Below are positions 15,267-19,016 of a stretch of DNA of 64,000 bases, piece after piece (the stretch's first letter is position 1; every line of letters begins with the position of its first letter). The notes below the pieces were generated by a model, which saw only the letters and a list, made by a program, of their open reading frames with translations, had not been told where the DNA came from and did no database searches. Position numbers and translations under genes: made by a program. The stretch is from contig LVAK01000027.1 in assembly GCA_001604035.1 (NCBI GenBank), forward strand, positions 26-64,025, read 5' to 3'. The DNA is from Clostridiales bacterium Firm_05 (GTDB lineage: Bacteria; Bacillota; Clostridia; Oscillospirales; Ruminococcaceae).

Positions 15267-15956
15267 ATGCTGGACGTGAATCATATCAGTGAGTATCGTG
15301 AAAACAACAGGATAGAAGCCAAGAAAGCTACAGGCGGTCTGCCGGACAGTCTGTGGGAGACATATTCGGCCTTTGCGAATACTCTTGGCGGAGTGATACT
15401 TCTGGGCGTGGAGGAATATCCCGACCGTTCACTGCACATAGTCGACCTGCCTGATCCTGAGTGGATGATAAGGGATATGCTGGATATACTGAATGATCCT
15501 AAGAAGGTCAGCGTCAACATACTCCGCAAGAAGGATATCTCCGTGAGAAAGGTTGACGGAAGGCGTGTTATAATGATAAAAGTGCCCCGTGCTGACAGGC
15601 GATTCAAGCCTGTATATATCGGCACTGATCCTTATTCCGGAACATACCGGAGGAATGGTGACGGTGACTACAAATGCTCCCGAGAAGAGGTGGAGGCACT
15701 GATAAATGAGAGCCGCTTCTATGATCCGGTAGAGGATACCAGTGAGTACAAGGCAGTTGTTGAAGCTGCGGATATAGAGGCTCAGAGCGAGCTTGAATGC
15801 TCATCGCTGGCAAGAAGGGATTCCGAAGACGGGATCTATTTCAGCTGGTGTTATGCCTTCTGGGAGATAAAGAAGCGGATACTGAAAGAGAAATACAATA
15901 TAGACTGGCGTACACCGGCAGAATTCATGCCGGCGCCCGCACAGGAGGATAAATAA
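15267..15956 (+). CDS. AlbA_2/Schlafen-like domain protein with short C-terminal domain
   Basis: ENNRIEAKKA, WETYSAFANTLGGVILLGVEE; RBS GGAGGG before ATG 15267. Confidence 0.8.
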   Translation: MLDVNHISEYRENNRIEAKKATGGLPDSLWETYSAFANTLGGVILLGVEEYPDRSLHIVDLPDPEWMIRDMLDILNDPKKVSVNILRKKDISVRKVDGRRVIMIKVPRADRRFKPVYIGTDPYSGTYRRNGDGDYKCSREEVEALINESRFYDPVEDTSEYKAVVEAADIEAQSELECSSLARRDSEDGIYFSWCYAFWEIKKRILKEKYNIDWRTPAEFMPAPAQEDK

Positions 15957-16729
15957 TGATAAAATACTACGATATAGGACTGAACCTTTTCTGCAAGCAG
16001 TTTCCAAGACCTGAGGAAATACTTTCCGGCGCAGCTGAAAACGGCGTTGGCTGTATACTCACAGGCTCGGACATGAAGAGCAGTGAAAGTGTTGCAGGGT
16101 TTGTTTCCGGACATGATTGCTGGGGCACCTGCGGCATACACCCGCACAGTGCAGACAGTGCAAGGGCGGAGGATCTCCGCAGGATAAAGGAGATAGTCTC
16201 CTCAAACGAAAAGATAGTTGCGGTTGGAGAGTGCGGACTTGACTATGACAGGATGTTCTCCACAAAGGAAAATCAGATACGCTGCTTTGAGCATCATATA
16301 AAAATCGCAGAGGAGCTCGGAAAGCCTCTTTTTCTACATGAGAGGGAGGCATCTGATGATTTCATCGCACGCTTTAAAAAGCATAAGGACATATGCTCAC
16401 ACGCTGTCGTTCATTGCTTCACAGGCGGAAAGGATGTGCTGGAAAAGTACCTGGATATGGGCTTTTACATCGGCATTACCGGTTGGATATGTGATGACAG
16501 AAGGGGAGCAGCTCTGCGTGAGGCAGTGAAGCTCATACCGGCCGACAGGATAATGGCTGAGACTGATGCACCATACCTTACACCTAAAAATGTCAAAGGT
16601 CTGGACAGGACTAATCTGCCGCAGAACATAGTGTACGTTGTGAGGGAGCTTGCAAAGCACATGAAGCTCAGTGAGGAGGAGCTTACGCTCAGGCTTGCTG
16701 AAAATACAAAAAGATTTTTCGGAATATGA
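15956..16729 (+). CDS. TatD family hydrolase/DNase
   Basis: GIHPH, AVGECGLDY, LFLHER, VVHCFTG, AETDAPY. Confidence 0.92.
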   Translation: MIKYYDIGLNLFCKQFPRPEEILSGAAENGVGCILTGSDMKSSESVAGFVSGHDCWGTCGIHPHSADSARAEDLRRIKEIVSSNEKIVAVGECGLDYDRMFSTKENQIRCFEHHIKIAEELGKPLFLHEREASDDFIARFKKHKDICSHAVVHCFTGGKDVLEKYLDMGFYIGITGWICDDRRGAALREAVKLIPADRIMAETDAPYLTPKNVKGLDRTNLPQNIVYVVRELAKHMKLSEEELTLRLAENTKRFFGI

Positions 16730-16802
16730 CGATCAGGTGATAAAACAAAGCAAATTTTCATCTGTTTTTTACCAAAAGTTAATATTCGATTCACATTTTT
16801 TA

Positions 16803-16831
16803 TTGAAATTTGCTATTATTTATGGTATAAT
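16803..16831 (+). promoter_or_regulatory. SigA-type promoter whose -10 box lies in the first repeat hairpin
   Basis: TTGAAA-17bp-TATAAT with extended TG. Confidence 0.7.
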
Positions 16832-17115
16832 GAATGCGAAAGCATTCATTATACTTTATCCCAATGCCCTTTTATACTTTATCCCAATGCCCTTGCAGAT
16901 ACACAGATCAGAGATCTGTTCCCTGCAATCGGGTGATTATACCATATGCGCTTCGCTTATATGGTATAATGGATGCGAAAGCATTCATTATACTTTATCC
17001 CAATGCCCTTGCAGATACACAGATCAGAGATCTGTTCCCTGCAATCGGGTGATTATACCATATGCGCTTCGCTTATATGGTATAATGGATGCGAAAGCAT
17101 TCATTATACTTTATC
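16821..17115 (+). repeat. 116-bp tandem repeat (about 2.3 units) with a nested 23-bp duplication, hairpin-rich
   Basis: 40-nt core starts at 16821, 16960 and 17076; TTATACTTTATCCCAATGCCCTT duplicated at 16849-16894. Confidence 0.92.
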
Positions 17116-17153
17116 TTAATGTAGTTGATAAAAATTCAGAAGGAGGTGTGTGC

Positions 17154-19016
17154 ATGATCGGCAGCAGAAAAATAATCTCACTATGTATCTCAAGACTGCA
17201 TGATATCGAGAATAATCGGTTCATCGCAAGACTCAACGAGCAGATAAAAGGCCTTAACTGCCGCCTGCTCATTTATAATATCACCACAGACCTCTTCTGG
17301 AAAGAGACAAAGCTGAGGTCAGAAACTGCGGTATTTGACCTTATCGATTATGAACATACTGATATCGTTATCATCATGGACGAAAAGATAAAGAGCCAGA
17401 CCGTTACAAGAAGTATTATTGCCAGGTCGAAAGAACACGGCATACCTGTGATCGTTGTGGACGGTGAATATGAGGACAGCCTCAGTGTCGAGTTCGACTA
17501 TAAGAGCGGCTTTGAAAAGATAGTCCGCCATGTGATTGAAGAACACGGTGCAAAGAGCGTGAATTATATCGGCGGCTTCAAGGGCAATCGTTTCTCAGAT
17601 GAGCGTGAGGAGATCGTCAGGAAAGTGACTGCGGAATATGGAATACCCTTTGATGATTCCATGACGTACTATGCTGAATTCTGGGCAAAGCCTTCTGTTG
17701 AAGCAGCAAAGAAGATCATATCTACAGGGAAAATACCGGATGCGGTTTTTTGTGCCAATGATATCATGGCCATAAATGTCACCAGTGTTTTTTTGAACCA
17801 TGGCATAAAAGTTCCGGAGCAGGTGATCGTGACCGGCTTTGACGGCATTGACGAGATCTATTTCACAGTGCCCAGGATAACCTCCGCAAGGACCTCCTAC
17901 AGGGAATTGGCGGATAAGGTTTTTGAGACAGTGGGCAGACTGCTCAATGGAGAAAAGTGTGAGGACAAGGTCTATGTCAAGCCGACGATGATATATAACG
18001 AGTCCTGCGGCTGCACCACCAGCGAGGACGATACAAAGCTTCTGAGGACGTTCAATAACAGGTTCTATCATTATCAGGATGACAATGTCAAGCTCAACGA
18101 TATATCCGATGTTATCCAGACCAAGAAGGAACTGATAAGTGCAGCAGAGGTGCTTTACAGCGATGTTGTAGAGAATATGTGCTGTATAATAAATAAGGAA
18201 TGTATTGACAATACCCATGATTATTTCCGAAGCAGGCGTGACCAGCCTTTCGGAGATACCATGTTCATGTTCTTCAATTCTGATGATCATCCGCTCAGGC
18301 AGTATGATATAAAGCGCAGCGATATGGTGCCTGATCTGGAGAGCAAGCTGGAAATGGGGTATCCGCTGATATTCAACTGCATATACTTCATGAATGTTCC
18401 GTTGGGATATATCTGCCTATATTTCAATCACTATGATATTACTGAATACGGCAAGATAATGGCCGTGGCAAATGCCATAGGCAGAGGCGTAGGCGGATTC
18501 ATAAACATGAGATACCAGCGCTATCTTATCGAGCGTGTGGAGAGTATGTATATGTGCGATTACCTTACAGGTCTTTATAACCGCACCAGCTTCAACAAGA
18601 AGTACATAGAGGCAGTAAATGAACTTCCATATGGTACAGAGATAACTGTCGTTCTGTCTGATCTTGACGGACTGAAAGGCATAAATGATAATTACGGCCA
18701 TTTCTCTGGCGACAATGCAATAAGGATAGTTGCACAGACACTGAAGGAGGCCTGTCCGCCGGATGCTATATGCGTAAGATACGGCGGCGATGAGATGATC
18801 GGCTTCATTGCCGGAAGCTGTGACACTGAAAAGATAACTGAAAAGATCCATTCGGCTATAGACGAGCACAACCGCCATTCCAGAACGGATTATAAGATAT
18901 CTGCAAGTGTTGGTGCTGTAACGGATGTGTTGAGTGACGAGACAGATATCGAAGATCTGATACGCCGTGCAGATAAGCTGATGTACATCGAGAAGCGTTC
19001 AAAAAAACAGCAGTAA
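17154..19016 (+). CDS. LacI-type sugar-binding domain fused to GGDEF (putative diguanylate cyclase)
   Basis: PDAVFCANDIMA and VIVTGFDG LacI-like motifs with no HTH; DYLTGLYNR, DLDGLKGINDNYGH, RYGGDEM; RBS AGGAGG before ATG 17154. Confidence 0.85.
   Translation: MIGSRKIISLCISRLHDIENNRFIARLNEQIKGLNCRLLIYNITTDLFWKETKLRSETAVFDLIDYEHTDIVIIMDEKIKSQTVTRSIIARSKEHGIPVIVVDGEYEDSLSVEFDYKSGFEKIVRHVIEEHGAKSVNYIGGFKGNRFSDEREEIVRKVTAEYGIPFDDSMTYYAEFWAKPSVEAAKKIISTGKIPDAVFCANDIMAINVTSVFLNHGIKVPEQVIVTGFDGIDEIYFTVPRITSARTSYRELADKVFETVGRLLNGEKCEDKVYVKPTMIYNESCGCTTSEDDTKLLRTFNNRFYHYQDDNVKLNDISDVIQTKKELISAAEVLYSDVVENMCCIINKECIDNTHDYFRSRRDQPFGDTMFMFFNSDDHPLRQYDIKRSDMVPDLESKLEMGYPLIFNCIYFMNVPLGYICLYFNHYDITEYGKIMAVANAIGRGVGGFINMRYQRYLIERVESMYMCDYLTGLYNRTSFNKKYIEAVNELPYGTEITVVLSDLDGLKGINDNYGHFSGDNAIRIVAQTLKEACPPDAICVRYGGDEMIGFIAGSCDTEKITEKIHSAIDEHNRHSRTDYKISASVGAVTDVLSDETDIEDLIRRADKLMYIEKRSKKQQ

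What the first reader, a model, noticed from the sequence alone, without database searches (positions are those of the whole stretch)
16821..17115. 116-bp tandem array of competing hairpins at the promoter of a GGDEF gene
Seen: a 40-nt core occurs three times (16821, 16960, 17076). It contains a 13-bp GAAA-tetraloop hairpin (GTATAATGAATGC-GAAA-GCATTCATTATAC), perfect in copy 1 and with an A-to-G change that keeps a G-U pair in copies 2 and 3. The 76-nt linker forms a long hairpin (TTGCAG/CTGCAA, ACAGATC/GATCTGT) and a TTATACCATA/TATGGTATAA stem that overlaps, and so excludes, the GAAA hairpin. Each core carries an extended -10 (TGGTATAAT), but only the first has a -35. A 23-bp duplication is nested in unit 1. 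Inference: a copy-number-variable regulatory array tuning c-di-GMP synthesis, a repeated small RNA, or footprints of repeated insertion.
Basis: partly seen in the sequence, partly recalled or inferred. Interest (0 to 1): 0.65.

Follow-up and report, generated by a model that had tools for sequence, protein, structure and literature searches.

The report
Dispersed palindromic repeat built on promoter box
The "array of competing hairpins" in front of the GGDEF gene is two-and-a-bit copies of an undescribed ~100-130-bp DNA repeat, widespread in Ruminococcus/Anaerotruncus-type gut and rumen bacteria, that sits on ordinary promoters, reuses their -10 box as a hairpin arm and as its own boundary, and grows and shrinks in tandem; it has no specific link to c-di-GMP.

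Summary
It is not a GGDEF-specific device. The same unit lies at two other loci of this genome. A covariance model finds it in 93 of 401 genomes of the family, in eight other families of the order, sparsely elsewhere in the class, and at 65-91 or more copies in Anaerotruncus colihominis strains. One unit is an extended -10 box (TRTGnTATAAT) plus three palindromes; the box is the 5' arm of palindrome 1 and the 3' arm of palindrome 3, so each unit starts and ends with the same 11 bp. Relatives have a plain -35/-10 promoter where this genome has box-units-box (two loci). Only first boxes carry a -35. Array length differs between strains at orthologous loci. Stems covary massively, but G.U pairs are rare and show no strand bias, and hairpin 1 lies partly upstream of its own predicted start site, so DNA-level hairpins are favoured over an RNA. 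No Rfam family, Y1 transposase, plasmid, phage or paper matches. Four independent assemblies break or are N-gapped inside the array and lack the 23-bp duplication, so copy number here is unresolved.

The parts
15956..16729 (+). Upstream gene, TatD-family hydrolase (257 aa). Used as the anchor for orthologous and independent-assembly comparisons.
   Evidence: Pfam TatD_DNase, E 7.7e-63
16803..16808 (+). Resident -35 hexamer TTGAAA, 17 nt upstream of the first -10. It lies outside the repeat and is conserved in the element-free relative G432.
   Evidence: Promoter scan 11 of 12 matches with TG; G432 has TTGAAA-17-TGTGGTATAAT at the same place
16821..16831 (+). Box 1: TATGGTATAAT, an extended -10 (TRTGnTATAAT). 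It marks the left boundary of the array and is shared with the resident promoter.
16825..16854 (+). Palindrome/hairpin 1, copy 1: 13 bp perfect, GAAA loop. Its 5' arm is the -10 box.
   Evidence: Inverted repeat I5; 12 of 13 pairs covary across the family
16849..16894 (+). Nested 23-bp tandem duplication (TTATACTTTATCCCAATGCCCTT, two copies). Absent from four other assemblies of the same locus.
   Evidence: TRF period 23, 100%; absent in L246-L249
16889..16934 (+). Palindrome/hairpin 2, copy 1: GCCC / TTGCAG / ACAGATC stems with an AUAC/UCC internal loop.
16936..16970 (+). Palindrome/hairpin 3, copy 1: ATTATACCATAT ... ATATGGTATAAT. Its 3' arm is box 2 (16960-16970).
   Evidence: Inverted repeat I6; covariation
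16964..16993 (+). Palindrome/hairpin 1, copy 2, with a G.T pair. It shares box 2 with hairpin 3, so the two are mutually exclusive on one strand.
   Evidence: the MFE fold keeps hairpin 3 and trims hairpin 1 to 6 bp
17005..17050 (+). Palindrome/hairpin 2, copy 2.
17052..17086 (+). Palindrome/hairpin 3, copy 2. Its 3' arm is box 3 (17076-17086), the -10 box nearest the gene, with no -35.
   Evidence: Inverted repeat I7
17080..17109 (+). Palindrome/hairpin 1, copy 3 (a partial third unit ending about 17126). It is followed by TTATCTTAAT and was flagged as terminator-like. A start from box 3 is predicted near 17093, inside its loop.
   Evidence: Terminator scan 17079-17110; start site inferred from -10 spacing
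17142..17146 (+). Shine-Dalgarno sequence GGAGG of the GGDEF gene.
17154..19016 (+). Peripla_BP_3 + GGDEF gene (620 aa). The ORF is open upstream to 16671 through the array, but that extension is not protein-like.
   Evidence: the gene is called as 620 aa in GCA_035452005.1

Best explanation
The array is a local cluster of a dispersed DNA repeat family of Oscillospirales.

Anatomy (shown): a unit of 92-139 bp consists of the canonical Gram-positive extended -10 box yRTGnTATAAT, then palindrome 1 (the box plus 6 variable bp, an AAA-type loop, and the complement), a short T-rich linker, palindrome 2 (variable in length and sequence), and palindrome 3 (the complement of the box, a variable inner stem, and the box again). 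Each unit therefore starts and ends with the same 11-bp box, and neighbouring units share it.

Origin (shown for two loci): relatives have a plain -35/-10 promoter where this genome has box-unit(s)-box. The element has been added onto a resident promoter, whose -35 now serves only the first box.

Dynamics (shown in Anaerotruncus): arrays gain and lose units. Unequal crossing-over or slippage between boxes is the inferred cause. At one locus followed through a genus, copies persist across deep divergence and decay by internal deletion.

Level of selection (inferred): the hairpins are maintained as DNA palindromes. This could be through single-strand or cruciform recognition during spread, or through template-switch correction between arms. 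They are not maintained as a top-strand RNA.

Effect on the GGDEF gene (inferred): generic, not c-di-GMP-specific. The full promoter now fires about 330 nt upstream into hairpins, of which palindrome 1 plus its T-rich tail is terminator-like. Two -35-less extended -10 boxes lie closer. The last would start transcription near 17093 and give a 61-nt leader.
For: Dispersal: the same unit lies at G000:C142 (2 units) and C182 (1 unit). Model R1 hits 93 of 401 family genomes in 53 of 166 genera, eight other families of the order and nine genomes of other orders. Copy numbers are 51 in G101 and 35 in G064, at least 65 and at least 91 in A. colihominis DSM 17241 and JM4-15, and 22 in Ruminococcus sp. 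XPD3002.

Structure: on 11 curated units, 94.7% of cells pair and 10 pairs change on both sides, against 0-3 in slid controls. On 79 hits, 42 of 44 pairs are compensatory.

Empty sites: G432 (TatD 93% identical, same synteny) has only TTGAAA-17-TGTGGTATAAT; G402 also has a plain promoter. G413 and G409 have plain TTGAAA/TTGATT-17-(G/C)ATGGTATAAT at the C142 locus.

-35 hexamers: first boxes average 3.44 of 6 matches (25 of 50 have at least 4); other boxes average 2.17 (4 of 76).

Promoter placement: 39 of 59 arrays point at an SD-plus-ORF start, against 24 of 59 in the mirror direction. The forward distances have a mode at 21-46 nt that the mirror direction lacks.

Copy-number change: L264 vs L285 (2 vs 3 units) and L269 vs L276 (1 vs 2).

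Life history at nadE: full, relic, short and empty states within one genus.

DNA level: G.U 40 vs A.C 59 among about 2,700 paired cells, with no bias after redundancy removal. Both strands fold at z of about -6. Hairpin 1 covaries in single-unit copies.
Against: No enzyme or mechanism of spread was identified. Y1 transposases do not correlate with element presence and have unrelated ends. Nothing matched on plasmids or phages. Right ends are sometimes ragged: the window array ends after the linker, and L269/L276 end inside palindrome 2. Copies are kept at the same locus across deep divergence (NadE 69% identical), so 'mobile' may overstate the turnover, and retention could reflect function. 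20 of 59 arrays have no obvious downstream gene. No transcription data could be obtained, so promoter use at any box is inferred from consensus only. Alignment A2 was fitted to the model, which inflates pairing counts. The conserved AUAC/UCC internal loop of palindrome 2 in several subfamilies hints at a specific ligand or protein that this model does not explain.
Confidence: 0.62

Rival explanations
1. Structured RNA: each unit encodes a cis-acting leader or a small RNA, made from its own -10 box and ending at the next hairpin 1 plus U-tract. The competing hairpins 1 and 3 would act as a terminator/antiterminator switch.
For: Strong covariation in three helices. The RNA fold has z = -5.9. Hairpin 1 followed by a T-rich tail is flagged terminator-like. 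Two copies lack the terminal box, so hairpin 2 must lie in the 5' UTR. The internal loop AUAC/UCC of hairpin 2 is conserved across subfamilies whose stems differ.
Against: No Rfam hit. G.U pairs are only about 1-2% of cells and no commoner than A.C. Both strands fold equally well. The 5' arm of hairpin 1 is upstream of its own predicted start, yet it covaries in single-unit copies. Downstream genes are functionally unrelated. Hairpin 2 shrinks to about 8 nt in many copies.
Confidence: 0.17
2. Operator array: the conserved inverted repeats GGTATAAT...ATTATACC are binding sites for a dimeric regulator, or for sigma-A holoenzyme itself. The array would titrate or loop this factor to control the downstream gene.
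For: The outer arms are the most conserved part of the unit. The sites overlap -10 boxes.
Against: The inner stems covary with no sequence conservation, which protein half-site recognition does not explain. The box changes to TGATAAAAT in Anaerotruncus together with its complement. No regulator gene is linked to the loci.
Confidence: 0.08
3. Local accident or artefact: a one-off tandem duplication of this promoter, or an assembler loop, with no wider meaning.
For: The two full units are 100% identical. Short-read assemblies cannot resolve the array, and the 23-bp duplication is unique to this assembly.
Against: The same unit lies at other loci and in hundreds of genomes, including complete ones with arrays. 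Independent assemblies reach box 2 with the same sequence.
Confidence: 0.03

Closest known systems
Correia (NEMIS/CREE) elements of Neisseria
   Same: Both are roughly 100-200-bp non-coding repeats at tens to more than a hundred copies. Both lie mostly just upstream of genes, carry sigma-70-type promoter boxes at their ends, and form long hairpins when single-stranded or transcribed (PMC10969869).
   Different: Correia elements have classical terminal inverted repeats, a TA target duplication and an IHF site, and are restricted to Neisseria. Here the unit is bounded by direct copies of the -10 box, has three internal palindromes, forms head-to-tail arrays that share the box, and is unrelated in sequence.
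Putative mobile promoters / promoter reuse (Nijveen, Matus-Garcia, van Passel 2012; PMC3575422)
   Same: Highly similar promoter regions in front of non-homologous genes, within genomes and across genera and families. This family fits that operational definition.
   Different: That category is defined by similarity only, with no common anatomy or mechanism. This family has a defined three-palindrome architecture and tandem dynamics.
REP/BIME clusters and REPIN-RAYT systems (PMC3184786, PMC3733652, PMC3337134)
   Same: Extragenic imperfect palindromes whose stems covary, clustered in mosaics, that break assemblies. DNA-level hairpins are the likely selected form.
   Different: No GTAG/CGTC tag. 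No linked RAYT/Y1 gene. Located at 5' ends on promoters, not between convergent genes. Units are three to four times longer.
Integron attC sites / folded single-strand recombination sites (own knowledge)
   Same: A conserved core (GGTATAAT) and inverse core (ATTATACC) flank a palindromic centre that varies in sequence. Units lie head to tail with the core at each junction. The target carries the same core.
   Different: The arrays are dispersed, not next to one integrase. There are no cassette ORFs. No integrase was tested or seen. This is an analogy of form only.

Membership tests
REP/BIME (REPIN-RAYT) | Short extragenic imperfect palindromes in many copies, with stems conserved in structure | tested here: met
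REP/BIME (REPIN-RAYT) | Conserved GTAG or CGTC tetranucleotide tag at one end (PMC3733652) | tested here: not met
   The consensus of 73 units shows yATGGTATAAT and CAATTATACCAT as the conserved ends, with no such tag
REP/BIME (REPIN-RAYT) | A RAYT (Y1 transposase) gene flanked by the repeats in the same genome | tested here: not met
   PF01797 is absent from G000 and G081, which carry the element. R1 finds nothing near 12 Y1 genes. The IS200 ends in G064 are unrelated.
MITE (including Correia) | Terminal inverted repeats at both ends of the unit | tested here: not met
   Units begin and end with the same box in direct orientation. The inverted copy is internal.
MITE (including Correia) | Target-site duplication of fixed length whose sequence differs from site to site | tested here: not met
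   The flanking direct repeat is always the -10 box. Empty sites already contain one box.
MITE (including Correia) | A parent insertion sequence with matching ends | tested here: inconclusive
   Only Y1-type elements were examined. No copy had cargo; the longest insertion in hairpin 2 is about 30 nt.
Putative mobile promoters | Highly similar promoter regions upstream of non-homologous genes, also across taxa | tested here: met
   Units are 90-93% identical between genera g1 and g153.
Known RNA family / riboswitch | Match to a curated covariance model | tested here: not met
   Nothing relevant even at E = 10 in the window, nor in divergent arrays
Intrinsic terminator (hairpin 1) | GC-containing stem followed directly by a T-run | tested here: inconclusive
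   One of three copies passes the simple scan. The tail is typically only TTTAT, and the stems are AT-rich.
Integron attC | Array adjacent to an intI integrase; recombination at the core site | not tested
   No integrase search was run. The arrays are dispersed over the chromosome.

The most novel reading that the evidence does not exclude
The family may be a non-autonomous element that homes to sigma-A extended -10 promoter boxes. In single-stranded form its hairpins 1 and 3 rebuild a duplex copy of the box (GGTATAAT/ATTATACC). An unidentified host or element-encoded recombinase, or a replication template switch, would then join this duplex to a genomic box, regenerating the box on both sides. 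This is formally like attC x attI, or like CTX-phage integration at dif. It would be a promoter-targeting class of mobile DNA with no described counterpart. Array length at a promoter would then act as a heritable, reversible setting of expression.
Probability: 0.15. Interest if true: 0.85.

Novelty: new variant of a known kind. Interest (0 to 1): 0.6.

Why it matters
These repeats occupy promoters of dozens of genes per genome in abundant gut and rumen Clostridia (Anaerotruncus, Ruminococcus, Faecousia and others). They change in unit number between strains, and they break short-read assemblies exactly at regulatory regions. If array length alters transcription, they are a hidden source of strain-level expression variation. 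They also mislead annotation: here the GGDEF ORF stays open through the array. Their build, with the -10 box as hairpin arm, unit boundary and apparent landing site, poses a clear mechanistic question. It can be tested in cultured type strains.

Tried and rejected
- **Rfam.** Searched at permissive thresholds on the window and on divergent arrays; nothing relevant.
- **IS200/IS605 or RAYT mobilisation.** Y1 gene counts do not follow element counts, the model finds no units near Y1 genes, and the IS200 ends in G064 are unrelated.
- **Plasmid or phage carriage.** No match.
- **Coding potential.** The ORF 16671-19016 is open through the array only because of the 139 + 116 nt phasing. Its translation is not protein-like, and unit lengths (92, 110, 116 nt) are not multiples of 3.
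- **RNA genes downstream of 'orphan' arrays.** Only tRNA-Ser (L027) and distant tRNAs (L082) were found.
- **C182 locus orthologs.** The upstream synteny is not conserved, so they are uninformative for an empty site.
- **Paenibacillus pattern hit.** Chance: 0 model hits. The Prevotella MAG hit is probably a mis-binned contig.
- **Literature.** No paper on this element.
- **Earlier scan notes.** No look-alike by sequence.

Full report
**Observation.**
The region reads as described. A 51-nt core occurs at 16821, 16960 and 17076. A 116-nt unit is repeated 2.1 times at 100% identity (16872-17115). A 23-bp duplication is nested at 16849-16894. The 30-nt hairpin pattern occurs 3 times against 0 expected. 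Only the first TGGTATAAT has a -35 (TTGAAA, 17-nt spacer). The flanking genes are a TatD hydrolase (15956-16729) and a Peripla_BP_3 + GGDEF protein. The true start of the GGDEF gene is ATG 17154, behind GGAGG.

**It is not specific to this gene.**
The unit recurs in the same genome on contig C142 (two tandem units, 92-93% identical) and on C182 (one unit, 82%). Each lies upstream of, and co-oriented with, an ECF-type sigma factor gene. BLAST found full-length relatives in other genera of the family. Eleven distinct units were aligned (A1). The three proposed hairpins pair in 94.7% of cells, and 10 pairs changed on both sides, against 0-3 when partners are slid.

A covariance model (R1) gave the following distribution:
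- 93 of 401 genomes of the family, in 53 of 166 genera.
- Eight further families of the order.
- Nine genomes in other orders of the class, with the same architecture.

Uncapped counts are 51 in G101, 35 in G064, 14 in G374, 8 in G081 and 7 in G000.

A pattern scan of named genomes shows that the hosts are Oscillospiraceae/Ruminococcaceae. Model counts in those genomes:
- Anaerotruncus colihominis DSM 17241: at least 65.
- A. colihominis JM4-15: at least 91, with arrays of about 8 units.
- Ruminococcus sp. XPD3002: 22.
- R. flavefaciens Y1: 5.
- Acetivibrio sp. MSJd-27: 3.

Many hits lie at contig ends.

**Anatomy of the family.**
The conserved parts are:
- yATGGTATAAT.
- The outer stem of hairpin 1 (ATAAT/ATTAT) with an AAA-type loop.
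- A T-rich linker.
- The foot of hairpin 2 (TGgCC/GGcCA).
- CAATTATACCAT.
- A variable inner stem of hairpin 3.
- ATGGTATAAT again.

The inner stems change freely but stay paired. 42 of 44 pairs show compensatory changes, and 91.9% of cells pair against 27-49% in slid controls. This alignment was fitted to the model, which favours the structure; the independent MAFFT alignment A1 gives the same direction. Hairpin 2 ranges from about 8 to 50 nt. In Anaerotruncus the box is TGATAAAAT, and its complement has changed with it. The box is the 5' arm of hairpin 1 and the 3' arm of hairpin 3. This is why units share it and why the two hairpins exclude each other on one strand. The MFE fold of the window array keeps hairpin 3 and trims hairpin 1.

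**The element sits on resident promoters.**
In G432 (TatD 93% identical, same TatD-GGDEF order) the spacer holds only TTGAAA-17-TGTGGTATAAT, followed by the SD. G402 (77%) also has a plain extended -10 promoter. At the C142 locus, G413 (sigma factor 85% identical) has TTGAAA-17-GATGGTATAAT and G409 has TTGATT-17-CATGGTATAAT, with no element.

Across 59 arrays:
- First boxes carry a -35-like hexamer (mean 3.44 of 6 matches; 25 of 50 have at least 4). Other boxes do not (mean 2.17; 4 of 76).
- 39 arrays point at an SD-plus-ORF start within 300 nt, against 24 in the mirror direction.
- Only the forward direction has a tight mode at 21-46 nt between the terminal box and the start codon.
- One copy directly precedes tRNA-Ser.
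- Two copies lack the terminal box, so the first promoter must read through hairpin 2 into the gene.

**Dynamics.**
The two A. colihominis genomes have flanks about 90-92% identical. Orthologous arrays carry 2 vs 3 units (upstream of a cdaA-like gene) and 1 vs 2 full units. A 5-unit array in the complete genome corresponds to an array split over two contig ends in the draft.

At the nadE promoter of genus g81:
- The full unit is present in G081 and in the distant G826 (NadE 69% identical). There the hairpin-1 and hairpin-3 inner stems are re-paired differently and hairpin 2 is almost unchanged.
- An internally deleted relic is present in G213.
- A short box-loop-box form is present in three species.
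- A plain promoter is present in the most distant species.

Copies at different loci of one genome are more alike (median 71%, up to 99%) than copies between genomes (median 52%). However, units of G153 (another genus) are 90-93% identical to those here. This pattern means amplification or homogenisation within genomes, long residence at a locus, decay by deletion, and possibly occasional transfer between rumen lineages.

**DNA or RNA?**
G.U pairs are rare (40 of about 2,700 cells) and no commoner than A.C (59). No bias appears after clustering at 95, 85 or 75% identity. Both strands fold equally well as single strands (z = -6.4 and -5.7). In single-unit copies hairpin 1 still covaries, although its 5' arm is the -10 box and so lies upstream of that promoter's own start. 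From established knowledge, structured RNAs usually tolerate G.U on the transcribed strand only. DNA quasi-palindromes can also acquire 'compensatory' changes without selection, by template switching between arms. I therefore read the hairpins as DNA-level features. An RNA role for read-through transcripts is not excluded.

**What it is not.**
- No Rfam family matches.
- Y1 (IS200/RAYT) transposases do not track the element, and their ends are unrelated.
- No plasmid or phage carries it.
- It is not coding.
- No paper describes it. The nearest concepts are putative mobile promoters (PMC3575422) and promoter-bearing MITEs such as Correia elements (PMC10969869).

**Reliability of this array.**
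Four independent assemblies encode the identical TatD. Three end inside unit 1 or exactly at box 2. The fourth is N-gapped inside the array. None has the 23-bp duplication. The insertion and at least two units are therefore real. The exact unit number and the nested duplication are not established. Reads could not be consulted.

**Likely working at this locus (inferred).**
The resident promoter (16803-16831) now starts about 330 nt upstream of the ATG and transcribes through hairpins. Hairpin 1 with its T-rich tail may stop part of this transcription. Boxes 2 and 3 are -35-less extended -10 elements. Box 3 would start near 17093 and give a 61-nt leader. Unit number would change the balance of these inputs. 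Nothing ties this to c-di-GMP beyond the accident of which promoter was occupied.

Noticed in passing
L094-L101 (orthologs of G000:C142 sigma gene), about 60-110 nt upstream of the ATG: A conserved CTAAGA(C/T)...N...CGTCTAATA motif sits between the sigma-A promoter/element and the ECF sigma gene in all orthologs. It is probably the autoregulated ECF promoter. The sigma gene is followed by a dockerin-bearing 798-aa protein.
   Followed up: no
L290, L291, L294, L298 (upstream of nadE in genus g81): A conserved tiny hydrophobic ORF (about 26 aa, MGIASIALTIVLLVVINEIIKNI(R/K)KK or MEILYV...) has its own TTGACA/TATAAT promoter, a roughly 120-nt conserved leader and a terminator. It may be a small membrane peptide or toxin-like gene.
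   Followed up: no
L116, L119, L122, L125 (G064): An IS200-like element of about 730 bp is present in 13 identical copies. Each is inserted just after a terminator-like hairpin, with the left end TTGCTTAAGAACCACCGG... and the right end ...CCGGAGGTTTTGACT.
   Followed up: partly
L264 / L285 (A. colihominis): The diadenylate-cyclase-like gene (MAELWYNI...) is preceded by an array of this repeat that differs in unit number between two strains. With the GGDEF gene here, this is a second cyclic-dinucleotide synthase behind such an array. It is probably coincidence, given the diversity of the other downstream genes.
   Followed up: partly
window 16671-17153: The reading frame of the GGDEF gene stays open 483 nt upstream through the whole array, so gene callers could report a 781-aa product. 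The 23-bp duplication is what keeps the phase.
   Followed up: yes
window 17103-17131, minus strand: The 3' arm of the last hairpin 1 gives a TATAAT on the minus strand, with a TTATCA -35 at 17 nt (10 of 12 matches). Every unit also carries a full ATGGTATAAT on the minus strand (the complement of the box complement). The element could therefore fire antisense or serve divergent genes.
   Followed up: no
G444:C108:7218-7339 (a MAG labelled Prevotella): A 113-bit copy of this Clostridia-specific repeat lies on an 8-kb contig of a Prevotella MAG. This is most likely a binning contaminant.
   Followed up: no
L035 (G196:C7): Two copies lie in divergent orientation about 1.3 kb apart. One is in front of lepA. 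In the other, the terminal box is replaced by an SD plus ATG.
   Followed up: partly
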